Below are positions 9,645-56,568 of a DNA stretch of 64,000 nucleotides, in pieces. The stretch is from a virus (taxonomy: Duplodnaviria > Heunggongvirae > Uroviricota > Caudoviricetes). The position numbers were made by a program, and so were the translations under genes. Numbering within the stretch: position 1 is the stretch's first letter; the number at the start of each line of letters is the position of its first letter. The notes beneath the pieces are model-generated. The model saw nothing but the letters and a program-made list of their open reading frames with translations. It was not told the DNA's origin and ran no database searches. The stretch is from the IMG/VR virus record IMGVR_UViG_3300014204_013127; one strand, given 5' to 3'.

Positions 9645-9690
9645 TTAGGTGCAGGGATTTTGATACAATAGCATCATCAAGGAACTAATT

Positions 9691-10959: not shown

Positions 10960-10971
10960 AGGAAATAAATA

Positions 10972-29617: not shown

Positions 29618-29620
29618 AGT

Positions 29621-30433: not shown

Positions 30434-30434
30434 T

Positions 30435-31229
30435 ATGATTTTAAAGCCGATATTTCGATGGACAATTGGAAGGCCCTCAAGGGTTGGGTTTCATATTTTT
30501 GAGGAATCGGTCATTCAAACAATAAACGCATTGGGCAGAGATAATTTTGATTGGTTTGTGTGTTACAATAATTTGACTGAAGCACAGCTTGATAGGCTTA
30601 GAGAAGTTGCCAAAATTCATTTACTCACATTATATGAGCAGAAGATTTGTGATTGCCCTCTCTCACAGGAAAATCTCGGAACGCTATGGAAACTTTGCCC
30701 AGCTAGAATAAGGATAGAGTCATATGAAATTATAATGGATAATGATGTTGTAATTTGCAAACATTTGCCAGAAATAGACGATTTTCTTGGCGGCAAAAGG
30801 TGTTTGTGTTTGGATGAGCCAACTCGATATTTTGGACGATATAGTTGTTATCTACCAAAGACAAAAAAATACAACTCTGGTTTGATTGGATTGGTTCCTG
30901 GTCATGATTTTCAAAAAGATATATGTAGAGTGTGGCGTAAGTATGGCGAGCTTGAAAATTTAAACTCTGCGGACGAGCAAGGATTATTAGCATTGGTTTT
31001 TTTGCATAAGGATCAAATTACCATATCGAAAGACAAAATTCTTGAGCTACATCCCAATGAAATACACTTAGATAGTAAGGTGTGTTGTAGTTACAAAAAT
31101 TTTAACATGAATAATTTTGATGGATATCATTTTGTAGAATCTAATCGTAATCAATTTCACAGAGGGTGGAATTATTACAATTTGATAAAAAGTAACAGAA
31201 TTAGTAGATATAATAAGCCGCTTTTTTAA
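30435..31229 (+). CDS. hypothetical protein (possible nucleotide-sugar transferase)
   Basis: 264-aa ORF co-linear with the GT genes; it has DND/LDE acidic motifs only. Confidence 0.3.
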   Translation: MILKPIFRWTIGRPSRVGFHIFEESVIQTINALGRDNFDWFVCYNNLTEAQLDRLREVAKIHLLTLYEQKICDCPLSQENLGTLWKLCPARIRIESYEIIMDNDVVICKHLPEIDDFLGGKRCLCLDEPTRYFGRYSCYLPKTKKYNSGLIGLVPGHDFQKDICRVWRKYGELENLNSADEQGLLALVFLHKDQITISKDKILELHPNEIHLDSKVCCSYKNFNMNNFDGYHFVESNRNQFHRGWNYYNLIKSNRISRYNKPLF

Positions 31230-31239
31230 TGGTGTAATT

Positions 31240-32307
31240 ATGATAGAAACAGTAGAGCAAGTGCTGCAATCTTTGGATGAAATCAGAACATTTTTGACAA
31301 AATGTAAAGTTTGGGATGCCCAGTTTAAAATTCTACAATTAAAAGATTTGTTACATAGTGAAAGTTGGCCTGTTGCGGTGCCCCAAGAACTAATATGCAT
31401 GGAATCTGAAGATGATTTATTTGAACGTGCCGATTCAATCATTAATTTCTCTAATTGGGAGGTTGATGGCAAAAAGTTCTTAGATTTTGGTTGTGGCTTA
31501 GGACATGTTGCTGTTGTGGCTTCTCAGTTGGGATCACAAGCAGCAGGGTACGACATTGTGGAGAGTTCTTCTTTTGAGTGGGAAAAAGAGGGTAAGTATT
31601 TATTGACCACTAATTTTGATAAAATTAAAGCAATGTCGCCATTTGATTTTATCATGCTTTATGATGTTCTAGATCATTCAACTGATCCTGTAGGCATCCT
31701 AACCAAAGTAAGAGAGGTAGCAAATAAAAATACAGATATTTTTGTTCGTTGTCATCCGTTTTTATCAAGACATGGTGGACACTTATACAAACATATCAAT
31801 AAGGCTTATGTGCATTTAGTCTTTACAGAAGATGAGTTGCAAGAAATGGGATATGGTTTCGAAGGAAATTTTCAGAAAACAAATCAGCCACTAGTGACTT
31901 ATAGAGATTGGTTTAAACAGGCAAATTTATCGATAGTTGTGGAAGATGTTGTGCAAGATGTTTTGGAGCCATTTTTTAAAAAAGGCGTGGTTAAAGAGCG
32001 AATGCCCAAGTTTTCTTTTGATGGAGTTTGGGAACACTATGTTAATGGTCGAAAACACAGACGATTTGTGGCTTATCCAAATGGAACATTAAACACTCCA
32101 CAAGGTCCAGAAACTTGGTCCATTGATGGTTTAAATCTCAGTCTTAGATGGCCAACAGACAAAGGTATTTGGCGGGACGAATTAAAATTAAATGAAGATA
32201 TGACTCATTATGAGGGAACCAATCAAATAGGATATAAAATAAAAGGCGATAGAATAGAAAACATTAACAGTAGTTTTATTGATTTCACACTAAGGGCATA
32301 TGATTAA
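31240..32307 (+). CDS. class I SAM-dependent methyltransferase
   Basis: LDFGCGLGHVAVV is motif I (hh[DE]hGxGxG); an acidic motif II follows about 20 aa downstream. Confidence 0.6.
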   Translation: MIETVEQVLQSLDEIRTFLTKCKVWDAQFKILQLKDLLHSESWPVAVPQELICMESEDDLFERADSIINFSNWEVDGKKFLDFGCGLGHVAVVASQLGSQAAGYDIVESSSFEWEKEGKYLLTTNFDKIKAMSPFDFIMLYDVLDHSTDPVGILTKVREVANKNTDIFVRCHPFLSRHGGHLYKHINKAYVHLVFTEDELQEMGYGFEGNFQKTNQPLVTYRDWFKQANLSIVVEDVVQDVLEPFFKKGVVKERMPKFSFDGVWEHYVNGRKHRRFVAYPNGTLNTPQGPETWSIDGLNLSLRWPTDKGIWRDELKLNEDMTHYEGTNQIGYKIKGDRIENINSSFIDFTLRAYD

Positions 32308-32968
32308 TTATTTGGAAGTTTTTACAGTATGTGTGAATTATGGTGATTTCTTAAACATTTGCATAAGTGCAAATAAAAAGCACTTTGACAGATGGGTTGT
32401 TGTCACAAGCTCAGAAGATGAAAACACAAAAAACATATGCAAGAAAAGTGGTGTTGAGTGTGTGGAGTCTCGAAGATTTTATAATAATGGAGATAAATTT
32501 AATAAAGGAAAAGCACTAAACGATGTTATAAATCATTTGTTTAAGAAAGATTGGGTTCTTGCCTTAGATGCTGATATTATTCTTCCTGCTGATTTTAGGG
32601 AAATGATTGGTGCTAAAAAACTGAATAATGATTTTTTATATGGAGTTCCAAGGAAAAGTTTGGATACATGCCAATGTTGGACTGATGTGACTCCTGTAAT
32701 TTCGCCCTGGGGTTATTTTCAATTGTTTAATGGACATTCTGATGTTATGCAAAGGGCCAAGGTCTATCCAGAATCTTATCCCCATGCTGGAAATTATGAT
32801 TTGGAATTTGTGTCTTATTGGAACGGAAGACATAGAATGTTGGAAGATGTAGTAGTCGAACATATGCCACATGGGATTGTTGCAACAAATTGGTGTGGCA
32901 GAAGATCAAAAATATTATCCAAAAACGATGTTAGCACTTTCAGCAAATCGGTAATTAAATTCGCCTAA
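32300..32968 (+). CDS. DXD-motif glycosyltransferase-like protein (paralog A of a tandem duplicate)
   Basis: LEVFTVCVNYGDFL...KKHFDRWVVVTS...LALDADIILPADFRE. About 55-60% identical by eye to the next gene over its full length. Confidence 0.4.
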   Translation: MINYLEVFTVCVNYGDFLNICISANKKHFDRWVVVTSSEDENTKNICKKSGVECVESRRFYNNGDKFNKGKALNDVINHLFKKDWVLALDADIILPADFREMIGAKKLNNDFLYGVPRKSLDTCQCWTDVTPVISPWGYFQLFNGHSDVMQRAKVYPESYPHAGNYDLEFVSYWNGRHRMLEDVVVEHMPHGIVATNWCGRRSKILSKNDVSTFSKSVIKFA

Positions 32969-32970
32969 TT

Positions 32971-33618
32971 ATGTATTTAGAAGTTTTTACATCTTGCGTG
33001 GGTTATAGTGATTTTTTGGATGTGTGTTTATATTCAAACAAAAAGCATTTTGACAGATGGGTAATCATTACTTCGACAGAAGATGTGGCAACCAAGAGTG
33101 TGTGTAAAAAGCATCAAATAGAATGTGTTGAATCAAGTCGATTTTATGAAGGCGGTGCAGCATTTAACAAAGGTAAGGGACTAAATGATGCCATAAGTTA
33201 TTTGGATAAAAAAGATTGGATGCTTGCTTTAGACGCAGATATCATTCTTCCAGATAACTTTAGGGAAATAATCGAAGGATTGACTTTAGATAAAGAGTTT
33301 TTATATGGGGCGGTAAGGTATGAAATTGACAATATTTCTGGCAAACAAATGTATATTGATGGTGACAACATGCGTATACTTGGGTTTTTTCAGTTGTTTC
33401 ATGCTACGAGGCTAAAATACTATCCAGAAGATTGGGACACTGCTGGATGGTATGATGATGTGTTTGCAGATTACTGGGATTCTAAAAAAACATTACAAAA
33501 GTTGGTGATACAGCATATTGAGCATGGTGTGAGAACAACCAATTGGGAGGGCAGGAAATCCAAGCCTTTGTCGAAGACGGAAATAGGATCATTAAAGAAG
33601 TTGATTATAAAATTGTGA
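32971..33618 (+). CDS. DXD-motif glycosyltransferase-like protein (paralog B)
   Basis: LEVFTSCVGYSDFL...KKHFDRWVIITS...LALDADIILPDNFRE; tandem duplicate of 32300-32968. Confidence 0.4.
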   Translation: MYLEVFTSCVGYSDFLDVCLYSNKKHFDRWVIITSTEDVATKSVCKKHQIECVESSRFYEGGAAFNKGKGLNDAISYLDKKDWMLALDADIILPDNFREIIEGLTLDKEFLYGAVRYEIDNISGKQMYIDGDNMRILGFFQLFHATRLKYYPEDWDTAGWYDDVFADYWDSKKTLQKLVIQHIEHGVRTTNWEGRKSKPLSKTEIGSLKKLIIKL

Positions 33619-34729
33619 TGCCAGAATATGATTGGTAAGGAATGTTATTGGAATTGCGGTAAAAGCAAATTAGTTTTCTTCCAATTACGAGATATTTGTT
33701 TCTTACAAAATTAGTTCTACCTTCAAACAATGTGTTGATGGCATCTTTGTCATGTTGTGATATATTTCCAATATATAATATATCAATAGTTTCTTGCCCT
33801 GTTTGAACAAACTGAAGGTTTAAATAGCAAGAATCTAATTTTTCTATAAAACTTGGTTCGTATATTATTTTATTGTTTATTTTTATTGCATTGTTGACAT
33901 GCGGTATAAATTTGAAGTTTAAATATGACTTTCCACAATTACACACTCTGACTTGCGGATTGATTTCAAATAAATCATCAGATTCAATTTGATTATTTGC
34001 AAGATTGATTAAGCTTGTGTTTCCAGAAAAAGTTGGAAAAAAATGCAATGTGCGAAATGGGCAGGTGTAAAAGTTAGATGTGATTGACCAATCAACCATG
34101 TTGTTATTAAGGTGGATCGAGGATGGTATTTTGCTGGATTTGAAAAAAGGCTCCCAATCTAAAGTACGGATAGCAAGTATTTTGTCTTGTTTTAAGAACT
34201 CTAAGAAACTTTTTTGTTCTAATAGAAAAAGTAGTGTATTAGAGACGGTGCTGATAGTGATTGGCTCTTTTACGCTATGAAGGAAATTTATCAAAAAAGA
34301 TAGGGCATTGTTTTGGTCCCAATAAAAAATGCCAGCATAATCCATAAGAGAATTATCTTTAACACGCATAATAGCATTTTTTTTATCTCCGCAAGGAAAC
34401 ATTGATTGAATGTATATTGTTTTCCCTATGCTTGGCTTGATTGCAGACTCCATGCTATTGATCCAAAAATCGAAAAACGGACCAAATTTATATTCCCGAG
34501 GTATATTTGTGGAGCCATTTGTCCTTAGAGAAATTGAACTAAAATTTTTACAATCCTCACGGGCAGCTTTTACATCTGAAGCAAAATCGACATAATCGCA
34601 AAAGTTATAGGACTGAATTTCTTGCCATAAAAGTTTGGCACTTTCAAGGGTTGGGTTTTTGTAATATTGATTATAACATTGCAAAAGATTCATTAGGTTA
34701 TTGAAATTGTATATACGGGGCAAGCACAA
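33605..34729 (-). CDS. hypothetical protein (Asn/Ser-rich, TTG start per the ORF track)
   Basis: 374 aa, minus strand, downstream of rSAM-2 and the small peptide. No recognisable motif. Confidence 0.35.
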   Translation of the reverse strand: MCLPRIYNFNNLMNLLQCYNQYYKNPTLESAKLLWQEIQSYNFCDYVDFASDVKAAREDCKNFSSISLRTNGSTNIPREYKFGPFFDFWINSMESAIKPSIGKTIYIQSMFPCGDKKNAIMRVKDNSLMDYAGIFYWDQNNALSFLINFLHSVKEPITISTVSNTLLFLLEQKSFLEFLKQDKILAIRTLDWEPFFKSSKIPSSIHLNNNMVDWSITSNFYTCPFRTLHFFPTFSGNTSLINLANNQIESDDLFEINPQVRVCNCGKSYLNFKFIPHVNNAIKINNKIIYEPSFIEKLDSCYLNLQFVQTGQETIDILYIGNISQHDKDAINTLFEGRTNFVRNKYLVIGRKLICFYRNSNNIPYQSYSGITIL

Positions 34730-34863
34730 ACATAGCCAGCAGTAGAATTTGAATTGGTGCCCGCATTAATTTCCATACACAAGCACTCGTCCAGCAATTG
34801 TTGTAGTTTTTCTGCATCTGGACACTCAAAAGTGATTTTTTCTGCATCTGTTAGTGTTGTCAT
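34696..34863 (-). CDS. small Cys-containing peptide (56 aa) immediately downstream of rSAM-2; candidate precursor peptide
   Basis: Hand translation of the minus strand gives MTTLTDAEKITFECPDAEKLQQLLDECLCMEINAGTNSNSTAGYVCACPVYTISIT. The ATG (34861-34863) lies 12 nt after the rSAM-2 stop and is preceded by AAGGA. It is not in the ORF track because it is under 60 aa. Confidence 0.4.
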
Positions 34864-34875
34864 CATTTTTTTTCC

Positions 34876-36018
34876 TTAGCATAGTTTGTTGTCATTGGCC
34901 ATTTTTTGTATTTGGTGTTGAAGAGCTACTGGATCGCAAAAATTGCTTTTTCCCCCAACAAAATCCAACATCGCACAGCTTCCCCAGCAATACCCTGCTG
35001 CTTGACACTTCATGCATTTTGTGTCATTTAGCAAGGGCATGGTTTTTAAAATTAGGTCATTTCTTCTCTCTATGATTGTACTCAAACTATCTGATAAATT
35101 TCCTATCTTTGTATATGTATAATAATCGCTAAATATATTTTCTGTATAGTCGGTTAATAATACTTCATGTCTGTATTTACAACACCATGTAGGCGTGAAT
35201 ATAGGTTTTAACAATATATCAGCAAAAGATTTGGTGGTTTTCCTGCACTCGGAATGTGGTCCGATAAGCCCTATGTTTATTTGTTCAGGTTTAAATCCAA
35301 ACTGAAGAGCAAAGAGATAATATTCTTTTCGTAGTTCTGGTGTATTGGATGCATCGCCAAAAGAAGCTTTCAAATTGATTTTGTGCCTCAGTCCTTTGGT
35401 TATTAATATTTTCAAATTATTGGTTGTTTTTTCAAATGGACTCCAATTACCTGTGAGTGGTATTCTTTGTGCATCGTTCAACAAATCATTACCACCATCT
35501 AAACTAATGCTTAGTTGGCTTAATTTTTCAATTAAAGATAATCTTCTTTCATTTAGATCAATCGTTAGATTAGAGACCATGCCTATGTGTAAAATGTTTG
35601 CATGAGATTTGATCTTGTCTATAACTTCATGGCATTTTTCTTCTTCCAGTAGGTTTTCTCCACCATAAAAAAATATGCAGATATCTTTGACATTAGATCG
35701 TATTATAAAATCACAAATTTTATCAACATTTAATGGTTTTTGTTGCTTTGCTTCTAAAAGATGCGAGAAGTTGCAGTGTGTGCATCGTAAGTTACATTCC
35801 AATGTTGGTGCTATGTTAAAGTTTAGAAACTTTGGGGGGTCATGAATTATCAACAATTTCAACAAGGACTCTCTTTCTTGTCCCGATAAAAACAAATTGG
35901 ACTCCAACTCGTCAAAGGTCGCAGAAATGGGCAGTTGTTGCCTTGTGAGGGTGTTAAAATAGACTTTTTCCCCACTCTCATTGACAGTTTGGCAGACATA
36001 AAAAGATAGGTTTTTCAT
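34876..36018 (-). CDS. radical SAM/SPASM enzyme (rSAM-2) with ~80-aa N-terminal extension
   Basis: The CNLRCTHCNF CxxxCxxC motif is present. C-terminal CMKCQAAGYCWGSCAM...FCDP fits a SPASM Cys cluster. Confidence 0.7.
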   Translation of the reverse strand: MKNLSFYVCQTVNESGEKVYFNTLTRQQLPISATFDELESNLFLSGQERESLLKLLIIHDPPKFLNFNIAPTLECNLRCTHCNFSHLLEAKQQKPLNVDKICDFIIRSNVKDICIFFYGGENLLEEEKCHEVIDKIKSHANILHIGMVSNLTIDLNERRLSLIEKLSQLSISLDGGNDLLNDAQRIPLTGNWSPFEKTTNNLKILITKGLRHKINLKASFGDASNTPELRKEYYLFALQFGFKPEQINIGLIGPHSECRKTTKSFADILLKPIFTPTWCCKYRHEVLLTDYTENIFSDYYTYTKIGNLSDSLSTIIERRNDLILKTMPLLNDTKCMKCQAAGYCWGSCAMLDFVGGKSNFCDPVALQHQIQKMANDNKLC

Positions 36019-36081: not shown

Positions 36082-38700
36082 ATGAGAGATTATAAAAAAG
36101 AGCTACAGTTGTTGTGCCAGCAAAAAATAGAGAGCTTAGGACTATGTTCAAACGCTCAATATGCAGATCGTCTGAAATTGGAGTTTAGACATATCGACTG
36201 GCAAGATGAGCACTATTATTTAGTGGATTTGTACGAAAGAAAATGTAAGTTTGCCAAAAATGAAAACAATATGTTGGTGGTCCATCTTTTAGGACTAGCC
36301 GATGAATTTGATATCAGCCAACCGCCAAAGTTTACGTTTATTGCCGAGTTCCCCGACATAGATTCAGATTTCTTGCCTGAAATTCAACAGTGGTTAAAAA
36401 ATGTCTGGGCTCCCCAAACCTTTGGGGCGGAATATGTTTGTAATATTGGTAATTATGCCACTTATGGCATCAAATCTGCTTTACAGGATATGGCCAGAGT
36501 TTATGGCTTGAGTCATGATGAAGTCAACACGGTTACCACCCAGATTGAAGATAAAGATGATGAAAATAAACCCATTACGTGGGAAAAAGCTTTGGAGCTA
36601 AACAAGGAATTGGCTGCTTATTGCGAGCAATATCCAGAGGTATATGATGCTGCCAAGCGATTGTATGGCAGGGTAAGGGGAATGGGCAAACATGCTGGTG
36701 GTTTGATTATTTCTAGCATGCCCTTGGCTGATTTTGTTCCATTGGTTGTGGACAAGCAAGGCAATCCGCTTTCAGCATGGACTGAAGGACTGCATGCTCA
36801 AGACTTGGCCCCTGTAGGATTGGTGAAAGTCGATGTATTGGTTATTACAAACTTAGTGCAAATAGCTAAGTGCTTGAAATTGATTCGTGAGCGATACGGT
36901 ATCGACAGGATGTGTAATTTAGAGGCACAGGATGATTGGTCGGACACAGAGAAGTACCAAAATGATCCTGATGCTATTGCTTTGGCAAACGAAGCAAAAT
37001 TAAAGTGCATTTTCCAATTTGATTCTCCCGGCATTAGGGATTTGGCAAAAAAGGGTGGTGTGACTTCATTTGATGATCTAGTGGCATTCACTAGTTTATA
37101 TCGTCCTGGTCCTATGGGCTCTCAACTCCACACCACCTATTGTAAGCGAAAAAAGGGCGAGCCATACGAGTTGCATCCATTGTTAAAGCCTATTTTGGAA
37201 AAAACATATGGGGTGATGTGTTACCAAGAACAGATCATGAAAATCTTCAATGTTATTGGGGGTTTTCCATTGCCTCAATGTTATAAAATTGTGAAGGCTA
37301 TTTCCAAGAAAAAAGGCGAGGTTTTCCAAAAAGCCAAAGTTCAATTTTTGGAACAATGCCAACAAAGATTGGATTATTCTGAGCAAGAAGCTAATGAATT
37401 TTTTGAGAGTATAGCAAAGTTTTCGGGATATGCTTTCAATTTAAGTCATGCTACTTCATATTCGTTTGTTTCTGCAATGCTGTTGTATTTGAAAGCTCAT
37501 TATCCTTTAGAGTTCTTTGCAGCTATTTTGAGTTGTGAAAAAAATGCTGACAAGATTAAAGAATACAGATTAGAAGCCCAAAGATTTGGGGTGCCGATCA
37601 ATCGTATTGATATCAATAAGTCGAAGGTTCATTTTGAAATTATAGACAATGAAATATATTTAGGGTTTGCGGACATTAAGGGTGTTGGTGATGAGGTTGC
37701 TGAAAAAATCGTGGCAGGACAGCCCTATAGTTCTTTTGTAGATTTTATGGAACGATTTGGCACTTATGCTGATGTTTTGAAGCCACTGATTGCTTTACGG
37801 GTTTTTTCTGATGAACCGATGGTTTTGTATGAATTTGCTGAATTCTATCGTTGCAAAAGCAAATCACGCAAAGATCGAGATAAGAGATATATTACTTCTC
37901 AACAAGATCGTCTAGATGAAATTATATCCTTAGTACAATCAGAATATGAGAAAATAATAGATGGCGATTGGTGTGCTCAGTTTAAAGACCTGAAGAAAAA
38001 GGAATTTATTGAAAAGCATAGTGCTATGTGTTTGGACGGCATGGCCGAAGATGTTTTTACAGCCATCAATCAATATAACAAATCTAAAGCCAACAATGAG
38101 AAAAAGGTAGCACTCGATACCGTTATCACAATGGATAATTGGAATCCATCGGGAAAAATAGATCACGAAATGCAGGTTTTATTATCACATCACTTGTCTA
38201 TTGCCGAAAACAAATATTATGGTTTTCCTTGGGATTATGTGTTGACGCAATCTCCTGATTATAAAGGAAGAACCTTTGAGGAGTTCGATATAGCAATTGC
38301 ACAGGGCGATCATGCCATTAAGCCGGTGGAGGTGCAGATAATAGAGAAGCCTCGAATTATGAAGTCTAAGAAAGGATACAAGGTCAAAGTTGTGGACGGC
38401 AATGGAAGAGCAGAAACTGTTACTATTTGGAAAGATGATTTTGAAAGATTTGAGGAAGAAATTGCTTGGTGGGAGCCGACATGCGAGTGGGGCAATTTAT
38501 TACAAATGAGGCTTAAAAAGCCTATGGGGGATTGGAAAGATTACACATTTGAAAGTTTCCCCAGAGAGCTTAGGAAAGAAATGGTGCCTAAGGAAAAAAG
38601 CCAAGATGGTCGTTTGAATGTTTTGCGTTGGCCGGAAAGTGCCATAGTCAAACAAGATGTAATAGATAAAATCAAGGAAGATTTTACTATTATAGACTAG
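36082..38700 (+). CDS. dnaE: DNA polymerase III alpha subunit, C-terminal fragment (palm catalytic aspartates onward, fingers, OB-like)
   Basis: FPDIDSDF is the PDFDVDF catalytic motif. GKHAGGLIIS matches GxHAxGvvI. YCKRKKGEPYELHPLLKPILEKTYGVMCYQEQIMKI matches the conserved fingers region. 872 aa, including an ~85-aa N-terminal extension with no DnaE counterpart. Confidence 0.8.
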   Translation: MRDYKKELQLLCQQKIESLGLCSNAQYADRLKLEFRHIDWQDEHYYLVDLYERKCKFAKNENNMLVVHLLGLADEFDISQPPKFTFIAEFPDIDSDFLPEIQQWLKNVWAPQTFGAEYVCNIGNYATYGIKSALQDMARVYGLSHDEVNTVTTQIEDKDDENKPITWEKALELNKELAAYCEQYPEVYDAAKRLYGRVRGMGKHAGGLIISSMPLADFVPLVVDKQGNPLSAWTEGLHAQDLAPVGLVKVDVLVITNLVQIAKCLKLIRERYGIDRMCNLEAQDDWSDTEKYQNDPDAIALANEAKLKCIFQFDSPGIRDLAKKGGVTSFDDLVAFTSLYRPGPMGSQLHTTYCKRKKGEPYELHPLLKPILEKTYGVMCYQEQIMKIFNVIGGFPLPQCYKIVKAISKKKGEVFQKAKVQFLEQCQQRLDYSEQEANEFFESIAKFSGYAFNLSHATSYSFVSAMLLYLKAHYPLEFFAAILSCEKNADKIKEYRLEAQRFGVPINRIDINKSKVHFEIIDNEIYLGFADIKGVGDEVAEKIVAGQPYSSFVDFMERFGTYADVLKPLIALRVFSDEPMVLYEFAEFYRCKSKSRKDRDKRYITSQQDRLDEIISLVQSEYEKIIDGDWCAQFKDLKKKEFIEKHSAMCLDGMAEDVFTAINQYNKSKANNEKKVALDTVITMDNWNPSGKIDHEMQVLLSHHLSIAENKYYGFPWDYVLTQSPDYKGRTFEEFDIAIAQGDHAIKPVEVQIIEKPRIMKSKKGYKVKVVDGNGRAETVTIWKDDFERFEEEIAWWEPTCEWGNLLQMRLKKPMGDWKDYTFESFPRELRKEMVPKEKSQDGRLNVLRWPESAIVKQDVIDKIKEDFTIID

Positions 38701-38729
38701 CTATATATGCTTGTCCTAAAGGAGGTACA

Positions 38730-38933
38730 ATGTTAGCAACAAGTGAAAAATCCTGCACTCAACAACGAAAATGGTATCCCAAGTTGTTTCGTATTTTGTT
38801 TAATGGATTGTTTTCCTTTGATGAGTGTGAAGTATTTGTTCGAACAGATGCTCCCCACGCTTGTCAGACTGTATTAGCAGATTTTAGTAGCGTTTGTGGT
38901 TGTAGTGGTTGTTGTAGCAATATGGTAGCTTGA
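38730..38933 (+). CDS. small Cys-rich peptide (67 aa) with C-terminal CGCSGCC cluster; candidate RiPP precursor
   Basis: A perfect AAAGGAGGT ribosome-binding site lies 5 nt upstream of the ATG. The peptide ends ...ADFSSVCGCSGCCSNMVA, and the rSAM/SPASM gene follows 12 nt downstream. Confidence 0.55.
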   Translation: MLATSEKSCTQQRKWYPKLFRILFNGLFSFDECEVFVRTDAPHACQTVLADFSSVCGCSGCCSNMVA

Positions 38934-38945
38934 TAAAGGGATAAG

Positions 38946-40277
38946 ATGTTTAAAAGGTATAAACTTTCTAAATACAACATATTGGTGCAGCATGAAGATG
39001 TTTGGTTATTGTACAACCAAGTGTCTGGCACATTGATAAAATTGAATGATCGATTAAAGGATTTTCAAAAAATAGCCGACAGCACATTATGTTTAAGTAA
39101 GTTCAAAAGAAAGCTTCGCAAACACAAATTTTTAGTGCCTGTTGATGAGGATGAGTTTGCAACTTTTCGACAAACTGATGTAGATCATCTTAACAACAAT
39201 CAAGAGAAGAAATTTGTCATTGTTGTGACTAGTCGCTGCAATGCAGCTTGTTTTTATTGTTATGAAAAAGAGTGCAAAGAATATTGCATGGCTACCGACA
39301 TGTCATCCGATGTACAAGATCAGCTTGTGCGATTTATTGACCATTGTATTTCTTCCACCCCTACAATAAATTTTTCTATAACTTGGTATGGCGGCGAGCC
39401 GTTGTTGTGCCCAAATATAGTATGTGATCTTGCCAAAAAAATTAAAGATGTTTGCAAAAATAGAGGGGTGAAATTCTCAAACAATATTATTACTAACGGC
39501 ACATTATTAGACAACGAAATGATAGATCGATTGCTGTCAATCAATTGTCGTAGTGTTCAAATTACTATTGATGGGATGCGTGAAATACATGACGCAAGAA
39601 GACCTTTAATTGGTGCCAACCCATCTTCTTATGACATTATTATGGAGAACTTAATTGCTGGATATTCTAAGGGATTGGAAATAGATGTGCGAAGTAATCT
39701 TGATTACTCAAACTCTGAACAATACAAGCAATTTTTAGATGATATATTAAACAAAGGTCTCAATCAGAGAAATTCTGCCGGTGGTATTGTTAATCCATCG
39801 CCAGCGATGACTCGATTTCCAAATCAATTGGGCATGAAGCAAGAAGATTTTGCCATTGTGACCAATGATACTATTCAAGCATTGAAAGGAAAGACAGAAG
39901 TATATAGGTTTCTTGCTCCTACCTTACCGGGGTGCATGAAGAATATGAGATTTTATTACACAATAGCTCCAAACGGTAATGTGACCAAATGTATTGGTGG
40001 AATAAGCGACGAAGACGCCATTGGAACCATATATGACATGAAACTGGCAGAGGAAGACAGTGCTATAGCAATTAGTCCCTGTGAAGATACGGAGTGTGTT
40101 CATTGCCCCATATTACCTAGTTGTGGTGGAGGTTGTGTAGAACGACACAAGAAATACAATTGTGAAAAATGCCATTATGGTGGTTGTCAAACAATTCGAT
40201 GGACTATCAATAATGCAATTGTAGGATTGTATTATTTCTTATTGCACAGAGGAGAACTCGGAGGAGATAAAGAGTAA
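38946..40277 (+). CDS. radical SAM/SPASM enzyme (rSAM-3), candidate peptide maturase
   Basis: CNAACFYCYE CxxxCxxC; C-terminal CEDTECVHCPILPSCGGGC is a SPASM-like Cys cluster. Confidence 0.7.
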   Translation: MFKRYKLSKYNILVQHEDVWLLYNQVSGTLIKLNDRLKDFQKIADSTLCLSKFKRKLRKHKFLVPVDEDEFATFRQTDVDHLNNNQEKKFVIVVTSRCNAACFYCYEKECKEYCMATDMSSDVQDQLVRFIDHCISSTPTINFSITWYGGEPLLCPNIVCDLAKKIKDVCKNRGVKFSNNIITNGTLLDNEMIDRLLSINCRSVQITIDGMREIHDARRPLIGANPSSYDIIMENLIAGYSKGLEIDVRSNLDYSNSEQYKQFLDDILNKGLNQRNSAGGIVNPSPAMTRFPNQLGMKQEDFAIVTNDTIQALKGKTEVYRFLAPTLPGCMKNMRFYYTIAPNGNVTKCIGGISDEDAIGTIYDMKLAEEDSAIAISPCEDTECVHCPILPSCGGGCVERHKKYNCEKCHYGGCQTIRWTINNAIVGLYYFLLHRGELGGDKE

Positions 40278-41342
40278 TTTATTGTCGCTGTTTCTTGGAG
40301 CATTCTCATATTGTTCTATTTGCACTGGTTGATGCAATAATCCTTTTAACACATCTTTTGTTATCAATACAGATGTCTCATTTTGCTGATCTATAAATAA
40401 GGTGATTATTCCTTTTTTGTTTTGTCGAATCATATACGGCACAGGTGTTTGATTTTTTGATTTAAGAAATGAAGATATAAATGATGTAATTGTATGTGGG
40501 TCACAAGGCGTTTTGTTATTATCCCAAAGACATTGTATAGACTTTCCTGTAAATTCTGTAAAGACCCTGCCATAAATGCCGCATTGGCAACTCTTTGTTT
40601 GTATTACGCCCAGATCATCGGTTTTACAAGAGGCGTATGGTTGGCTGTAATTGAAAAAATCTGTGCTTGTAATTTCGTTGTAGTTATTTTGTTCAACAAG
40701 ACATAATTCGTCATCAATATGTTTTGTTCCGTACCTGCATTCTATAAAGCTTAGCCCCGTATCCCACGCTCTCATTTTATCTATAACAGATGTGTATATT
40801 TTGAGTGATTTATCACGAGTGTCGTCAAACAAGGTCTCACAGCTAAACATAACCACACAGTTAAGTGGTGTTTTGTTTTCTGTGGCAAAATAAGACGCCA
40901 TAAAAGTAGATGGTGTCGTATAGACCAAATCTGGACATATTTGGGCAGTTATGTCATACGCTTCTTCCCACTGTTGTTTATTGGCATTGTAAGGGATTGA
41001 AATTGTATAAACATTGTTGTTTAGAGATGCAATAGTGGATGGACCATCAATGCTTAAAGACTGTGAATTGGCTGTTGACACCATCCATGCAATGCGTAGC
41101 CTGGGATTTAGGTTGTTTAGGTAACAAATTTTATTAAAATGATATTTTTCAATATTTACAAATTCAGGCACAGAATATTTGTACATTTTTGCACAACCAG
41201 TGGTTGTGCCAGAGGTATGTAAAACAACATTGTTTGTTGATGTTCCGGCCTTTTTTTTTAGGTAACGGAGAGCCACTGTTTGGTAATGTGTCAAATGTTC
41301 ATAATTGCGAATATATTGCGGAGATAATGGAGCAAATATCAT
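40239..41342 (-). CDS. adenylate-forming enzyme (ANL superfamily, PaaK/F390-synthetase-like)
   Basis: HTSGTTTGCAKMY resembles the [ST]SGTTGxPK AMP-binding P-loop. 367 aa, convergent on and overlapping rSAM-3 by 39 nt. Confidence 0.4.
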   Translation of the reverse strand: MIFAPLSPQYIRNYEHLTHYQTVALRYLKKKAGTSTNNVVLHTSGTTTGCAKMYKYSVPEFVNIEKYHFNKICYLNNLNPRLRIAWMVSTANSQSLSIDGPSTIASLNNNVYTISIPYNANKQQWEEAYDITAQICPDLVYTTPSTFMASYFATENKTPLNCVVMFSCETLFDDTRDKSLKIYTSVIDKMRAWDTGLSFIECRYGTKHIDDELCLVEQNNYNEITSTDFFNYSQPYASCKTDDLGVIQTKSCQCGIYGRVFTEFTGKSIQCLWDNNKTPCDPHTITSFISSFLKSKNQTPVPYMIRQNKKGIITLFIDQQNETSVLITKDVLKGLLHQPVQIEQYENAPRNSDNKLLFISSEFSSVQ

Positions 41343-41837: not shown

Positions 41838-42464
41838 ATGGCAAATATGTATTATCAAGATAGAGAAGAGCTAGAAAAATGGGCTCAAATTATAGAAAAA
41901 GCAACAGCAGATGGTAAGTTTAAGAATGCAGCAAATGTAACTCCTTCTCCCAAAACCTCCGAGGAAAGCTTCTTTGGGCTGCAAAATACGCACCCCACCG
42001 ATAAGCCAGCCGAGCAGGATGTTAAATATTGGAATCAAGTAACCAAAAAGGCAGAAAATCCTTCTGTTTTGAATGAGGCAATAGACCCCAAATTAGTCAA
42101 AGAATGGCGTCGTATGGTTGGGCTTTCTACAAAGGACATTGTAGAAAGCACCGAAGATGTTGCTAATGTGGCGAAAAGTATTGCTCAAACACCAAATCCC
42201 ATAAGACAAAATACTGTGGGTATGGATCAGTCTTTGGAGCCCGGTTCTTTGGGGCTGACTTTCTCCGAAGAAGATATCAAGAATTTGGATGCATTAAAAA
42301 TTCAATTGCACGAAATGGAGTGCAAATTAAATGCTTTTGAGAGTCGAGGGGAAAATGCTTCTAAATTTGAGAAACAAATTCAAGTTCTTAAAGGTAAAAT
42401 AGATGCTTTAAGCACAGCTATGACGCAAAGTTTCCCCTATTCTATTAGCCCACAGGGAGATTAA
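41838..42464 (+). CDS. hypothetical coiled-coil protein
   Basis: 208 aa with a C-terminal heptad-like region; immediately upstream of the fibre-like protein. Confidence 0.35.
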   Translation: MANMYYQDREELEKWAQIIEKATADGKFKNAANVTPSPKTSEESFFGLQNTHPTDKPAEQDVKYWNQVTKKAENPSVLNEAIDPKLVKEWRRMVGLSTKDIVESTEDVANVAKSIAQTPNPIRQNTVGMDQSLEPGSLGLTFSEEDIKNLDALKIQLHEMECKLNAFESRGENASKFEKQIQVLKGKIDALSTAMTQSFPYSISPQGD

Positions 42465-42466
42465 TT

Positions 42467-43780
42467 ATGGCAACAAAAACATCCAATGGCACTGGTGGTG
42501 GAACATGGTCGGTTGGTGCAACATGGTCGGGTGGTGTTGCACCAACCATAGGCACAGATGATGTTGTTATAGCGTCTACTGATACTGTGACTTGTGATCT
42601 CAACAGCACAACACCAAGTAAAGGCATTGTAGTTAATGGGATTTTAAGTTTTTCTACGACTGCATCAACCAAGCTTACAATGGGTAATTATACTATTGCG
42701 ATTGGTGCCACTGGGGAATTGCGAATTGGTACGGTAGGTTCTGTGTTAGATAAAGCATATACAGCCGAAATATTGTGGGATACAACTACGGATGGAGCGA
42801 ACGGTATAACAATTGCCGATGGTGGAAAATTGACCTTATATGGCGATCCGTTATTGTATAGCAATATTTTATGCACAAGTATAGCGGATTTTTGTACCGT
42901 GACTGGCACATTAAGCCCCGATGTGACTGGATATTACTACCCAACCTCTGATTATCCATCTGGATGGAACGATCATACAGTTTATCAAAGAGATGGCCTT
43001 GTTGGCGGGGCTCAATATTTTATTTGGTACGATGCAGATGTGAGTCGTTGGAGATTGTCGGCTGAAGTAGGAGGTATTTTGCCATATCGATGGCTTTCAG
43101 CCAGTGCCATATTGAATTCTACGTTCAACCCTGGCGGCAATTCTACTGGAGTGGGCACTTGTATCAATGGGTGGCAACCATCATTAGGATTGACATTTAC
43201 AGTAGTGGGAGATGTGACAACAACATGGGCCAATGGGCAGGAGTTGTTAATTCATAAGAACGGGACATATTCACAAAATATTTACGATAGTTTTGCCGAC
43301 GCAGGATTGGGACCAGCTACAATTGTCTCATTGGTCGCTAATAGTTCAAATAGTGCAAATACTGACATTCAAATTGCGGAAGCCTACACAGGCAGGTATT
43401 ATAATACTGGTCGAGTATATAATTTAGATAGAAATATTAGAGTTGGCAAATTATCAGCATCTACTGATTTTGACGCAACACCAAACAATCGACCCATTAT
43501 CATTGATGATAATTCAACATCGGGCAATGTAAATGTAAGTAATGTTGTATTAACTGGGTTTTATCGACCGTTCATTAACACCGCAGGCACCAGCATATCT
43601 GCTCTATTTGCCAGAGCAATAATCAGAAATTCAGAATTGAGTGTTTGTAATGTTTCTACATCAATGGATGTGCTGGAGGTGGCTAATACTATTCAAATTG
43701 GTGCAAATAGATTAGATCAAACCGCAGTCGCCAGTTATTCTTTCCCCAACTATGGTGCGGTAGCTGGTGGCGGGGGTTAG
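42467..43780 (+). CDS. beta-helix/fibre-like structural protein (Thr/Gly/Asn-rich)
   Basis: N-terminal GTGGGTWSVGATWSGGVAPTIGTDDVVI is a W..G.TW.GG..P...D.V.I motif. The low-complexity composition is typical of parallel-beta-helix tail fibres/spikes. Confidence 0.4.
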   Translation: MATKTSNGTGGGTWSVGATWSGGVAPTIGTDDVVIASTDTVTCDLNSTTPSKGIVVNGILSFSTTASTKLTMGNYTIAIGATGELRIGTVGSVLDKAYTAEILWDTTTDGANGITIADGGKLTLYGDPLLYSNILCTSIADFCTVTGTLSPDVTGYYYPTSDYPSGWNDHTVYQRDGLVGGAQYFIWYDADVSRWRLSAEVGGILPYRWLSASAILNSTFNPGGNSTGVGTCINGWQPSLGLTFTVVGDVTTTWANGQELLIHKNGTYSQNIYDSFADAGLGPATIVSLVANSSNSANTDIQIAEAYTGRYYNTGRVYNLDRNIRVGKLSASTDFDATPNNRPIIIDDNSTSGNVNVSNVVLTGFYRPFINTAGTSISALFARAIIRNSELSVCNVSTSMDVLEVANTIQIGANRLDQTAVASYSFPNYGAVAGGGG

Positions 43781-43834: not shown

Positions 43835-44020
43835 ATGGAAAAATGCTTCAAAATGCACTGTCGTCATTGCAAGTGGACAGAGCTATCTACTGGCATATCT
43901 GCTGATTTGGCTCATCTTGCCGAAGTAAAAAAGTGTGCTAATTGTGGCGGTCCAAGAGTTTTCAAATGCCCTAAATGCAACACGCAAGTCAAGCTTATTA
44001 GAATTCGGGGAAATACATGA
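43835..44020 (+). CDS. small zinc-ribbon protein
   Basis: CRHC...CANCGG...CPKC in 61 aa. Confidence 0.3.
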   Translation: MEKCFKMHCRHCKWTELSTGISADLAHLAEVKKCANCGGPRVFKCPKCNTQVKLIRIRGNT

Positions 44021-56105: not shown

Positions 56106-56568
56106 AGATTTCTATGAGCCACCATTGCATAAGGTGGTGACTAAAATTGTGGTAGATGATCCTATGTTCATTCCACAATACAAAACAGAGGGTGCAGCTT
56201 GCGTTGATTTGGTTGCCAATATCCCAGCGGGTGAAATTAGACTTAATCATCGAAACACCATTAAAATTGATTGTGGCTTCTCTATGGAGCTAAAACCAGG
56301 GTGGAAGGCCAATGTGAGAGCAAGAAGCGGTTTGGCAACGCAGGGCTTGATTGTTACTAATTCGCCGGGGTGTATAGATGCTGATTATAGGGGTCGTATA
56401 CAAGTTATTGTAACAAATGTAGGTAATGTCAACCCAATTACCTTGAAACATGGTGATCGAATTGCTCAAATGGAAATAGAGCCTGTTTATCTCTTTGACT
56501 GGCTGGTAGTTGACGCTTTGGAAGAAACCGCACGAGGAAGTGGTGGCTTTGGTAGCACCGGAGCCTAG
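56071..56568 (+). CDS. dut: dUTP diphosphatase
   Basis: GAACVDL, ARSGLATQGLIV, GCIDADYRG and RIAQMEI correspond to dUTPase motifs 1-4. ATG at 56071. The ORF-track start at 55891 adds an implausible Cys/Gln-rich extension. Confidence 0.75.
   Translation: MASPLPVPCPAKDFYEPPLHKVVTKIVVDDPMFIPQYKTEGAACVDLVANIPAGEIRLNHRNTIKIDCGFSMELKPGWKANVRARSGLATQGLIVTNSPGCIDADYRGRIQVIVTNVGNVNPITLKHGDRIAQMEIEPVYLFDWLVVDALEETARGSGGFGSTGA

What the first reader, a model, noticed from the sequence alone, without database searches (positions are those of the whole stretch)
38730..41342. RiPP-like operon: Cys-rich precursor peptide + radical-SAM/SPASM maturase (+ convergent adenylating enzyme) in a phage-like genome
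Directly after the dnaE C-fragment there is a 67-aa ORF with a perfect Shine-Dalgarno (AAAGGAGGT). Its C-terminal 15 residues carry five Cys (SSVCGCSGCCSNMVA). Twelve nt downstream begins a 443-aa radical-SAM enzyme (CNAACFYC) with a SPASM-type C-terminal Cys cluster. Small leader/core peptide plus rSAM-SPASM is the canonical arrangement for thioether or C-C cross-linked RiPPs (sactipeptide, ranthipeptide, SCIFF-like). A convergent PaaK-like adenylate-forming enzyme overlaps the 3' end. Phage-encoded rSAM RiPP machinery is essentially undescribed. The product could be a host-manipulating, superinfection-exclusion or antimicrobial peptide.
Basis: partly seen in the sequence, partly recalled or inferred. 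Interest (0 to 1): 0.8.

Follow-up and report, generated by a model that had tools for sequence, protein, structure and literature searches.

The report
Huge-phage peptide-modification gene trio
A giant bacteriophage genome carries a conserved three-gene set (a small peptide, a radical-SAM enzyme predicted to cross-link it, and an ATP-dependent carboxylate-activating enzyme) that recurs in other giant phages and looks like a new family of enzyme-modified peptides made by viruses.

Summary
The features are at the stated coordinates. A 67-aa ORF (38730-38933) follows an AAAGGAGGT ribosome-binding site. A 443-aa radical-SAM/SPASM enzyme starts 12 nt later. A convergent 367-aa PaaK-fold adenylating enzyme overlaps its 3' end by 39 nt. 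One correction: the last 15 residues hold four Cys, not five.

Cys density alone is not unusual in this window. Conservation is the real evidence. The peptide sits directly upstream of every close rSAM homologue, and most identical residues use different codons.

The trio also recurs at 27-32% identity on viral contigs of 158-381 kb and on short metagenome contigs. Those peptides share a leader motif (E/K-V-x-V...P), a (L/V)(A/V)D...C core and usually a C-terminal Ala.

The rSAM has an RRE-like N-domain and seven invariant SPASM Cys. Its best matches are RiPP maturases (CteB, TIGR04463, CefB), but it scores below every curated family cutoff.

The adenylating enzyme, this rSAM group and this peptide type occur only together in the loci I fetched. 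A pattern-based scan of 185,579 species genomes found no relative of the adenylating enzyme.

The RiPP reading is supported. Chemistry and biological role are untested.

The parts
38718..38726 (+). Shine-Dalgarno sequence AAAGGAGGT, 3 nt before the ATG of the precursor gene
   Evidence: Read directly from the sequence.
38730..38933 (+). Precursor peptide gene, 67 aa, 7 Cys, ending ...TVLADFSSVCGCSGCCSNMVA
   Evidence: ORF. Homologues lie upstream of related rSAMs. Synonymous-codon pattern. Not annotated in the NCBI record.
38823..38855 (+). Conserved leader motif ECEVFVRTDAP (residues 32-42). It corresponds to GIEVVVEP / DIELVVDP / GVKVVTRP in distant relatives and is the proposed RRE-binding strand.
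   Evidence: Alignments. The RRE-binding role is inferred by analogy.
38868..38930 (+). Predicted core region TVLADFSSVCGCSGCCSNMVA (residues 47-67), with conserved (L/V)(A/V)D, Cys and C-terminal Ala
   Evidence: Alignments. The core assignment is inferred.
38946..40277 (+). Radical-SAM/SPASM peptide-maturase-like enzyme, 443 aa
   Evidence: Pfam PF04055 at 1.5e-13. Full-length NCBIfam hits to RiPP maturases. AF2 pLDDT 88.5. Foldseek top hit CteB.
38946..39191 (+). N-terminal RRE-like domain (residues 1-82; strand-strand-strand-helix-helix-strand-helix)
   Evidence: AF2 secondary structure. Alignment to CteB spans 447-477 columns. The N-terminal 90 aa hit only the N-termini of RiPP-maturase models. 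No Pfam PqqD hit.
39237..39260 (+). CX3CX2C radical-SAM cluster motif (C98, C102, C105)
   Evidence: Sequence. Invariant in 43 homologues.
39933..40187 (+). SPASM region with seven invariant Cys (C330, C349, C384, C387, C393, C397, C414)
   Evidence: TIGR04085 at 37.3 bits against a cutoff of 27. Invariance.
40239..41342 (-). PaaK-family adenylate-forming (ANL) enzyme, 367 aa, convergent with the rSAM gene and overlapping it by 39 nt
   Evidence: AF2 pLDDT 86. Foldseek hits BT_0428, PaaK1, NatL2, AjiA1 and ClxA at E about 1e-12 to 1e-9. Profile against PDB hits ClxA at 3e-4. TSGTT P-loop and invariant C-terminal Lys355.
34876..36018 (-). Second radical-SAM enzyme with a C-terminal CX2CX5CX3C cluster (380 aa), on the other side of dnaE-C. 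Possibly a second, related module with no precursor of its own.
   Evidence: Pfam and NCBIfam. 22% identity to the 443-aa rSAM. No second precursor found in the window.
33605..34729 (-). Divergent paralogue of the adenylating enzyme (374 aa), directly downstream of the second rSAM
   Evidence: hhalign against the ANL family profile: probability 83%, E 8.5e-6, over the C-terminal half including the C.CG motif.

Best explanation
This is a RiPP-type peptide-modification module carried as accessory cargo by a huge phage.

Shown:
- A 67-aa peptide gene, an RRE-rSAM-SPASM enzyme and a PaaK-fold adenylating enzyme form a conserved, co-inherited trio.
- So far the trio is found only on huge-phage-like contigs.

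Inferred mechanism:
1. The peptide is translated from its strong ribosome-binding site just after dnaE-C.
2. Its leader strand (ECEVFVRTDAP) docks on the N-terminal RRE-like domain of the rSAM.
3. The rSAM cleaves SAM to a 5'-deoxyadenosyl radical and abstracts an H atom in the C-terminal core.
4. The rSAM joins a Cys sulfur, probably held on an auxiliary Fe-S cluster, to a carbon of an acceptor residue. This gives one or more thioether rings of sacti- or ranthipeptide type. Candidate acceptors are the conserved Asp51 or the conserved C-terminal residues.
5. The PaaK-like enzyme uses ATP to adenylate a carboxylate and passes it to a thiol or amine. The carboxylate could be the conserved C-terminal Ala, the Asp side chain, or a small acid that is then attached to the peptide.

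In other loci a methyltransferase and a sulfotransferase follow in the same operon and may tailor the product further. No exporter, leader protease or immunity gene is present. The product therefore probably acts inside the infected cell or is released at lysis. Its biological role is unknown.
For: Anatomy.

rSAM:
- Full-length hits to RiPP maturases: TIGR04463 2e-57, CefB 4e-53, geopeptide 4e-50, Clo7bot 1e-48.
- SPASM model passed.
- CX3CX2C and seven SPASM Cys invariant in 43 homologues.
- Best solved relative is CteB, by sequence (1.9e-19) and by fold (3e-17, TM 0.64-0.68).
- RRE-like N-domain in the model.
- Non-ANL relatives at 25-32% identity commonly have Cys-rich small ORFs upstream.

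Peptide:
- Conserved in six close members.
- 21 of 25 identical core residues use different codons.
- Distant members lie upstream of related rSAMs in L005, L091, L092, L099 and L100, sharing the leader and core motifs.

Adenylating enzyme: PaaK fold.

Linkage:
- The ANL lies next to or near the rSAM in every locus where enough DNA is available.
- L100/L101 read peptide-rSAM-ANL-methyltransferase-sulfotransferase, co-directional, with gaps of 1-3 nt after the peptide gene.
- ANL hits occur only in loci with this peptide type.
- The ANL-linked rSAMs are each other's best hits among 124 sequences.

Phage context:
- 42-68% protein identity and gene order shared with the 595-kb uncultured phage LR756511.1, which lacks the 38.7-44.0 kb block.
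- Related modules sit on IMG/VR contigs of 158, 239 and 381 kb.
- No ANL relative was found in 185,579 species genomes by pattern scan.
Against: - No modification has been observed. The thioether chemistry rests only on analogy to CteB, PapB and QhpD.
- The rSAM scores far below every curated family cutoff (195 bits against 525 for the best).
- The Asp is missing in one member (L099).
- In PapB the acceptor must lie C-terminal to the Cys (PMC12373016), which is the opposite of the D...C order here.
- In L090 and L098 the motif lies near the N-terminus of a roughly 200-aa protein, not a short peptide.
- No protease, transporter or immunity gene lies nearby.
- The role of the adenylating enzyme rests on gene linkage alone.
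- No capsid or terminase gene lies in this window, and the 340-kb source contig is deposited as a Proteobacteria MAG.
Confidence: 0.65

Rival explanations
1. The peptide is a precursor of a small molecule or cofactor, in the manner of PQQ or mycofactocin. The rSAM-SPASM enzyme would modify the conserved C-terminal residues, which are then excised and tailored by the adenylating enzyme, methyltransferase, glycosyltransferases and sulfotransferase nearby. The result would be a redox cofactor or metabolite rather than a macrocyclic peptide.
For: - The most widely conserved peptide features are at the extreme C-terminus (usually ...VA, LA or PA) plus one Cys.
- Methyltransferase, sulfotransferase and glycosyltransferase-like genes recur beside the module.
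- From established knowledge, MftC and PqqE are RRE-dependent SPASM enzymes acting on small peptides.
Against: - MftC and PqqE are not among the 25 best NCBIfam hits; those are dominated by cross-linking RiPP maturases.
- The peptide hits no known precursor model.
- No peptidase that could excise a product is seen.
Confidence: 0.12
2. The rSAM installs a structural cross-link in a small functional protein or subunit, as QhpD does in the QhpC subunit of quinohemoprotein amine dehydrogenase. The modified polypeptide would work as part of a phage protein complex rather than as a free natural product.
For: - In L090 and L098 the motif-bearing ORF is about 200 aa, with the VVL(A/V)DTG motif near the N-terminus and a long conserved tail.
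- QhpD-type Cys-to-Asp/Glu chemistry fits the conserved Asp and Cys.
- The QhpD model is hit at 4.6e-20.
- The absence of an exporter or protease fits an intracellular protein.
Against: - Most members are 48-81 aa, with low-complexity acidic or basic leaders typical of RiPP precursors.
- No partner structural or enzymatic gene is conserved next to the trio.
Confidence: 0.12
3. The small ORF is not the substrate. The rSAM and the adenylating enzyme would act on a non-peptide substrate, such as a sugar, nucleotide or DNA base, together with the neighbouring glycosyl- and methyltransferases. The small protein would have an unrelated role such as regulation or metal binding.
For: - The window carries three rSAMs plus glycosyltransferases and methyltransferases in a low-GC block at 28-36 kb.
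- The second rSAM/ANL pair has no precursor of its own.
- From established knowledge, PaaK-family enzymes normally activate small acids.
Against: - The small ORF is immediately upstream of the rSAM in every locus with sequence, even at 27-32% rSAM identity.
- Distant members have only 1-3 Cys, which argues against a metal-binding protein.
- The rSAM has an RRE-like domain and matches peptide maturases far better than BtrN- or anSME-type enzymes.
Confidence: 0.07
4. The contig is a piece of a bacterial genome or other large element, not a phage. This would then be an ordinary bacterial RiPP cluster.
For: - The exact proteins sit on a 340,072-bp contig deposited as 'MAG: Proteobacteria bacterium'.
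- No capsid, portal or terminase gene lies in the 64-kb window.
Against: - About 25 kb of shared gene order at 23-68% protein identity with the 595-kb uncultured phage LR756511.1.
- Many strong hits to phage-only PHROG families.
- Strong plus-strand gene bias and GC skew.
- Related modules lie on IMG/VR viral contigs.
- No ANL relative in 185,579 species genomes by pattern scan.
Confidence: 0.1

Closest known systems
CteB / SCIFF system (thioether-forming ranthipeptide maturase; PDB 5WGG, 5WHY)
   Same: The architecture matches: N-terminal RRE-like domain, rSAM barrel, and a SPASM domain with seven conserved Cys. It is the best solved match by sequence and by fold. A Cys-containing small precursor is encoded directly upstream.
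   Different: Identity is only about 16-17% in the structural alignment. The SCIFF maturase model scores 72 bits against a cutoff of 425. The precursor is unrelated to SCIFF peptides, with no NCBIfam hit. SCIFF loci are not known to me to have a PaaK-like partner (my own knowledge).
Haft-type bioinformatic RiPP maturase families: TIGR04463 (rSAM_vs_C_rich), CefB (NF038107, Cys-every-fifth), geopeptide (TIGR04280), Clo7bot (TIGR04334)
   Same: Alignments are full-length (residues 10-425 against model positions 1-424 of 438) at E 1e-48 to 2e-57. Each of these families pairs with a small Cys-containing precursor.
   Different: Scores are 166-195 bits against cutoffs of 400-600, so this enzyme is a member of none of them. 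It also has a different precursor family and an obligatory ANL partner.
PapB/freyrasin and QhpD/QhpC (Cys-to-Asp/Glu thioether formation)
   Same: Both are SPASM rSAMs that link Cys sulfur to the carbon next to a carboxylate. The family here usually conserves an Asp, at least one Cys and a free C-terminal residue. PapB can also use the C-terminal residue as acceptor (PMC12373016).
   Different: In PapB the acceptor must be C-terminal to the Cys; here the Asp precedes the Cys. The PapB model gives 98 bits against 340 and the QhpD model 72 against 453. One member lacks the Asp.
PaaK-family AMP-ligases (PaaK1, BT_0428, NatL2, AjiA1, ClxA)
   Same: The two-domain ANL fold matches (Foldseek E 1e-12 to 1e-9). 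The enzyme has a TSGTT P-loop, a C.CG motif and an invariant C-terminal Lys.
   Different: Identity is 11-14%. The protein is shorter (367 aa against about 430). There is no Pfam hit, and the closest NCBIfam model gives 34.6 bits against 251.9. It is linked to a peptide/rSAM pair rather than to aromatic-acid pathways. Its substrate is unknown.
Phage-borne biosynthetic gene clusters (for example sublancin on SPbeta; Dragos et al., bioRxiv 10.1101/2020.10.01.322628)
   Same: A peptide natural-product cluster is carried as accessory cargo by a phage.
   Different: Those clusters are reported as rare, mostly in temperate phages and mostly bacteriocins. This module sits in a huge-phage backbone next to replication genes, has no immunity or export genes, and its family has so far been found only in huge-phage-like contigs.

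Membership tests
Radical SAM superfamily | CX3CX2C motif and a Radical_SAM domain above the Pfam gathering score | tested here: met
   C98, C102 and C105. PF04055 at 51.7 bits against 29.5. The motif is invariant in 43 homologues.
SPASM-domain rSAM enzymes | C-terminal seven-Cys motif (C..G....C, then CX2CX5CX3C, then C) and TIGR04085 above its cutoff | tested here: met
   TIGR04085 at 37.3 bits against 27 on residues 320-443. C330, G344, C349, C384, C387, C393, C397 and C414 are invariant. No Pfam SPASM hit was reported.
Leader-dependent RiPP maturases | RiPP recognition element (PqqD-like winged helix) in the enzyme or a partner | tested here: inconclusive
   The AF2 model shows a strand-strand-strand-helix-helix-strand-helix domain at residues 1-82 with pLDDT above 90. 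The alignment to RRE-bearing CteB spans 447-477 columns. There is no Pfam PqqD hit. RRE-Finder was not available and leader binding was not tested.
RiPP precursor/maturase pair | Small precursor gene conserved next to the maturase, with a conserved leader and core | tested here: met
   Six close and at least six distant precursors lie directly upstream of the related rSAMs. Synonymous-codon pattern.
TIGR04463 / CefB / geopeptide / Clo7bot equivalogs | Score at or above the curated NCBIfam cutoff | tested here: not met
   194.7 against 525; 180.9 against 600; 171.2 against 400; 166.1 against 600.
SCIFF (six-Cys-in-forty-five) system | SCIFF precursor model and ScfB maturase model above cutoff | tested here: not met
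   The precursor hits no NCBIfam family. TIGR03974 gives 72 bits against 425.
Sactipeptide / ranthipeptide | Thioether between Cys sulfur and an alpha carbon (sacti) or beta/gamma carbon (ranthi) shown by MS or NMR | not testable with these tools
   Only the prerequisites are present: Cys in the core, an Asp or C-terminal acceptor, and a SPASM rSAM with seven conserved Cys.
Canonical exported RiPP gene cluster | Leader protease, transporter and/or immunity gene in the cluster | tested here: not met
   No such domains in the ORFs from 28.5 to 46.3 kb, nor in the gene calls of related loci.
PaaK / ANL adenylate-forming superfamily | Two-domain ANL fold, (T/S)SGTTG P-loop and a catalytic Lys in the C-terminal domain | tested here: met
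   Foldseek hits to PaaK-family structures at E about 1e-12. The profile hits ClxA at 3e-4. TSGTT and invariant K355. Not a member of TIGR02304 (34.6 bits against 251.9).
Huge (jumbo/mega) phage genome | Synteny with a recognised huge-phage genome, and virion hallmark genes | tested here: inconclusive
   Synteny at 23-68% protein identity with the 595-kb phage LR756511.1, and hits to phage-only PHROGs. No capsid or terminase gene lies in this window, and the source contig is labelled a bacterial MAG.
PQQ / mycofactocin-type peptide-derived cofactors | PqqA (E-x3-Y) or MftA (C-terminal VY) precursor, with PqqE or MftC as the best rSAM match | tested here: not met
   The peptide ends in ...NMVA and hits no precursor model. 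PqqE and MftC are not among the 25 best rSAM hits.

The most novel reading that the evidence does not exclude
This would be a new RiPP class restricted to huge phages. A SPASM radical-SAM enzyme and a PaaK-type thioester-forming ligase would act together on the conserved Cys and the C-terminal Ala of a leader-guided peptide. One possible product is a thioether ring plus a C-terminal thiolactone, or an S- or N-acyl cap. The product would be further methylated or sulfated in some lineages. The phage would use it during infection to manipulate or poison cells, without any export or immunity genes.
Probability: 0.3. Interest if true: 0.85.

Novelty: new variant of a known kind. Interest (0 to 1): 0.66.

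Why it matters
RiPP biosynthesis is treated as a cellular trait. Phage-borne clusters are reported as rare, mostly bacteriocins, and mostly on temperate phages. This module differs in four ways:
- It is a coherent, co-inherited family of peptide, RRE-rSAM-SPASM enzyme and PaaK-like ligase.
- In the collections I searched it appears only on huge-phage-like contigs.
- It sits beside the replication genes.
- It lacks export and immunity functions.

If the peptide is really modified, huge phages would make their own modified peptides. That would also reveal an enzyme pairing (SPASM rSAM plus PaaK-type ligase) that I could not find described for RiPPs, and give a handle on what such peptides do during infection. 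The system is small, just three genes, and can be tested directly by heterologous co-expression.

Tried and rejected
- **Near-identical phage DNA:** none.
- **Single-sequence scans of viral contigs** with the rSAM or the peptide: nothing. Alignment-based scans were needed.
- **Exhaustive profile search for the peptide** in 1.84 billion representatives: only its own cluster. The family is very rare or rarely gene-called.
- **Genome scan for the ANL** in 185,579 species: no relative. The scan is pattern-based, so sensitivity is limited.
- **DNA for two further loci** (the P0125 and P0126 contigs) was unavailable. Only their gene layout could be used.
- **Cys density as evidence:** rejected.
- **BLASTP between the two ANL-like ORFs of the window:** not significant. 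The profile comparison was.
- **Enterococcus phage IME_EF3 record:** it carries a Cys-rich peptide plus an rSAM, but it is an unverified 2.8-kb fragment with an IS200-like transposase. I did not use it as evidence for phage RiPPs.
- **Promoter and terminator scans:** uninformative.
- **Literature searches** for TIGR04463, OhkG/FlmE, PaaK with RiPP, and bacteriophage with SPASM: nothing relevant. The huge-phage survey paper mentions neither radical SAM nor RiPPs.
- **Asp-to-Cys thioether as the single conserved cross-link:** downgraded. One member lacks the Asp, and PapB needs the acceptor C-terminal to the Cys.


Full report
**1. The observation**

- The dnaE C-fragment ORF ends at 38700.
- AAAGGAGGT lies at 38718-38726, 3 nt before the ATG of a 67-aa ORF (38730-38933).
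- A 443-aa ORF (38946-40277) begins 12 nt after that stop and carries CNAACFYC.
- A 367-aa ORF on the minus strand (40239-41342) converges on it and overlaps it by 39 nt.

One detail is wrong. The last 15 residues (SSVCGCSGCCSNMVA) contain four Cys, not five. The peptide has seven in all.

Cys richness alone is weak evidence. In the six-frame ORF set of the window, 8 of 326 small ORFs have at least 4 Cys in 15 residues.

**2. The peptide gene is real and conserved**

The five closest homologues of the rSAM (47-65% identity for four of them; the fifth, P0003, is a 100%-identical partial copy of the window's own enzyme, so it is not an independent relative) come from metagenome contigs. Wherever upstream DNA exists, a homologous small ORF sits directly in front of the rSAM:
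- L001 and L002: 65 aa
- L004: truncated by the contig end
- L003: 48 aa, not gene-called

A profile search added two more peptides on short contigs, P0132 and P0133.

The six sequences share F-x-E-C-(E/K)-(V/I/L)-(F/V), a Cys about 12 residues later, (V/T)(L/F)AD(F/Y)(S/T), a Cys cluster C(G/L)C..CC, and a 4-5 residue tail that usually ends in Ala.

Between the window and L001, 25 of 32 core codons encode the same residue. Of those 25, 21 use a different codon. That is the signature of selection on the protein.

An exhaustive profile search of 1.84 billion representative proteins returned only this cluster. The NCBI record annotates the two enzymes but not the peptide.

**3. The 443-aa enzyme**

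- Pfam finds Radical_SAM.
- The C-terminal 124 residues pass the curated SPASM model TIGR04085, 37.3 bits against 27.
- In an alignment of 43 homologues, the CX3CX2C Cys and seven SPASM Cys (C330, C349, C384, C387, C393, C397, C414) are invariant.
- NCBIfam gives full-length alignments to bioinformatically defined RiPP maturase families: TIGR04463 at 2e-57, CefB at 4e-53, geopeptide at 4e-50, Clo7bot at 1e-48. All are far below the curated cutoffs. anSME scores only 6e-18.
- The best solved relative is the SCIFF thioether synthase CteB, by sequence (1.9e-19) and by fold (Foldseek 3e-17, TM 0.64-0.68, 447-477 aligned columns). Next come TigE, anSME and SuiB.
- The AF2 model (pLDDT 88.5) has an N-terminal strand-strand-strand-helix-helix-strand-helix domain at residues 1-82. 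This is the RRE-type topology seen in CteB. No PqqD Pfam hit supports it.
- Among about 70 metagenome loci with rSAMs 25-32% identical, many have classic Cys-rich precursors upstream, such as MKYLVEP... leaders and GG motifs. The wider clade is therefore a RiPP-maturase clade.

**4. The convergent gene**

It has no Pfam hit and only a weak match to an 'F390 synthetase-related' model. A nine-sequence profile hits the PaaK-family ligase ClxA (3e-4). The AF2 model (pLDDT 86) matches PaaK-family structures BT_0428, PaaK1, NatL2, AjiA1 and ClxA at E 1e-12 to 1e-9. The TSGTT P-loop, a C.CG motif and a C-terminal Lys (K355) are conserved.

**5. The three genes form one co-inherited module**

The ligase is convergent with, or adjacent to, the rSAM in:
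- L001 and L003
- two contigs without DNA, which carry 64-aa (two copies) and 70-aa small ORFs
- L090 and L092, two copies on one 381-kb IMG/VR contig
- L091, on a 239-kb contig, and L005, on a 158-kb contig
- L098 and L099
- L100 and L101

In L100 and L101 the order is peptide, rSAM, ligase, methyltransferase, sulfotransferase. All are co-directional, with gaps of 1-3 nt after the peptide gene. This is the strongest sign that the ligase belongs to the same pathway.

The small ORFs upstream of these distant rSAMs (27-32% identity) are recognisably related to the window peptide:
- L005: ...DDGIEVVVEP...FKIVDAGGCPPFNVA
- L092: ...EEDIELVVDP...TKLVDSGGCPFLA
- L091: ...DEGVEIVHEP...LKLADCTFQAPCTGLT
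- L100: ...DGVKIICKSSDP...TKLADCPSQGCSGLA
- L099...GVKVVTRP...TKLVLQPCSSQLPVA

The shared features are a leader strand (E/K)(V/I)x(V/I)...P, a core (L/V)(A/V)D followed by Cys, and usually a C-terminal Ala. The Cys-rich tail is specific to the window's subfamily. L099 lacks the Asp. In L090 and L098 the motif sits near the N-terminus of a roughly 200-aa protein.

Three further results tie the components together:
- An HMM of these peptides finds no second precursor in the window, and none in the roughly 79 loci whose rSAMs lack a ligase partner.
- Ligase homologues occur only in loci with this peptide type.
- The ligase-linked rSAMs are each other's best hits among 124 sequences. The single 'outsider', P0006, turned out to be ligase-linked too.

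**6. Genomic context**

- The exact proteins lie on a 340,072-bp contig deposited as a Proteobacteria MAG.
- The window has no near-identical phage relative.
- It shares about 25 kb of gene order, at 23-68% protein identity, with the 595-kb uncultured phage LR756511.1.
- It hits many phage-only PHROG families.
- It shows strong plus-strand bias and GC skew.
- In LR756511.1 the next shared gene follows dnaE after 1.1 kb. In the window a 5.3-kb block lies there (38.7-44.0 kb: peptide, rSAM, ligase, and ORFs of 134, 208, 437 and 61 aa). The module is therefore accessory cargo.
- A pattern-based scan of 185,579 species genomes found no relative of the ligase.
- No capsid or terminase gene lies in this window. 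Phage origin is well supported but not proven here.

**7. Mechanism (inferred)**

By analogy with CteB, PapB and QhpD, I propose the following.
1. The leader strand binds the RRE-like domain.
2. SAM cleavage gives a 5'-deoxyadenosyl radical.
3. The radical abstracts an H atom from an acceptor residue in the core.
4. A Cys sulfur, probably held on an auxiliary cluster, closes a thioether ring.

Only seven SPASM Cys are conserved. From my own knowledge of the CteB structure, that pattern leaves an open iron site that can bind a substrate Cys.

Candidate acceptors are Asp51 and the C-terminal residues. PapB needs its acceptor C-terminal to the Cys and can use the terminal residue itself (PMC12373016). 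That makes the conserved C-terminal Ala an attractive site.

The PaaK-type ligase makes acyl-adenylates and, typically, thioesters. It could activate the peptide's C-terminus or Asp, or a small acid that is then attached to the peptide. A distant homologue sits next to a carrier protein.

No exporter, protease or immunity gene is present. An intracellular role, or release at lysis, is therefore the simplest reading.

**8. Comparison with known systems, and novelty**

The module works like a SPASM-rSAM RiPP system of the sacti-, ranthi- or SCIFF type. It fails the curated membership thresholds of every named maturase family, and its precursor matches no known model.

I found no paper describing phage SPASM RiPP modules or a PaaK-RiPP pairing. 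Phage-borne gene clusters are reported as rare, mostly bacteriocins, and mostly on temperate phages. The huge-phage survey paper mentions neither radical SAM nor RiPPs.

I class this as a new variant of a known kind. The enzymology type is familiar. The precursor family, the obligatory PaaK-like partner and the apparent restriction to huge phages are new.

**9. Verdict**

- The RiPP interpretation is supported at the comparative-genomic and structural-prediction level.
- Chemistry and biological role are open.
- Confidence in the module-level explanation is about 0.65. Confidence in thioether chemistry specifically is about 0.4.
- Interest is 0.66.

Noticed in passing
window 14116-15453 (+) and 36082-38700 (+); L089 10786-14325; L098 7414-9921 (-): dnaE is split into an N-fragment and a C-fragment 20.6 kb apart. 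In the related 595-kb phage LR756511.1 it is one 1179-aa ORF. Another huge-phage contig (L098) has its dnaE N-fragment ending at the same point (...SRFLSPARGGKQMK(I/L)RF). That fragment also contains an intein and is followed directly by a substrate-rSAM-ligase module. The dnaE split site looks like a hotspot for these modules.
   Followed up: partly
window 33605-36018 (-): A second rSAM (380 aa, with a C-terminal CX2CX5CX3C cluster) is followed by a divergent paralogue of the PaaK-like ligase (374 aa; hhalign 83%, E 8.5e-6). The pair lies on the other side of dnaE-C. No precursor gene of its own was found.
   Followed up: partly
window about 28000-36000: This is a low-GC block (0.34-0.35 against 0.38-0.44 elsewhere). 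It holds a third rSAM (28547-29617), glycosyltransferase-like genes (29621-30433, 32300-32968, 32971-33618), a 264-aa ORF (30435-31229) and a methyltransferase (31240-32307). Homologues of three of these genes (29621-30433, 30435-31229, 31240-32307) lie near the rSAM/ligase modules in L001, L091 and L092.
   Followed up: partly
window 32300-32968 and 32971-33618 (+): Two adjacent ORFs are clear tandem paralogues; both begin ...LEVFT.CV.Y.DFL..C..(A/S)NKKHFDRWV. Only the first gives weak glycosyltransferase family 2 hits in Pfam; the second has no Pfam hit.
   Followed up: no
L001 3276-4136; L100 5558-6923; L092 5195-5866 and 10961-11530; L005 5008-5712: Sulfotransferase and class-I methyltransferase genes recur immediately beside the peptide/rSAM/ligase trio in other loci. 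This suggests further tailoring of the product.
   Followed up: partly
window 4915-12570 (+): A PrkA-like 'serine kinase' (691 aa) is 68% identical to one in LR756511.1 and about 30% identical to those of Thermus phages. It is followed by ORFs matching phrog_19072 / 'sporulation protein' and phrog_35217. This may be a PrkA/YeaH/SpoVR-like set in a phage.
   Followed up: no
window 42467-43780 (+) and 43835-44020 (+): A 437-aa protein with an N-terminal G8 domain and a 61-aa four-Cys zinc-ribbon-like ORF belong to the same 5.3-kb block that LR756511.1 lacks. They are not conserved with the module in other loci.
   Followed up: partly
window 58323-59189 (+); L089 14997-15266 (-): An HNH / endonuclease VII-like gene lies here. 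In LR756511.1 its homologue sits right after dnaE, at the position occupied in the window by the peptide/rSAM/ligase block.
   Followed up: no
L001 1644-3283 and 11506-12678; L001 8796-9422; L003 354-725: Related contigs that carry the module also encode IS605-type transposases (Y1_Tnp, OrfB), a release-factor-like protein (PCRF/RF-1) and a peptidyl-tRNA hydrolase (PTH2).
   Followed up: no
L097 (PQ520162.1) 1038-2491: An 'UNVERIFIED' 2.8-kb record labelled Enterococcus phage IME_EF3 carries a 46-aa Cys-rich peptide and a 425-aa rSAM/SPASM gene next to an IS200-like transposase. It may be bacterial DNA rather than phage.
   Followed up: partly
window 62292-62483 (+), 56565-56756 (-), 41871-42038 (-): Three other small ORFs have at least 5 Cys within 15 residues. 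I did not examine them. At least the minus-strand ones overlap longer plus-strand ORFs and are probably spurious.
   Followed up: no
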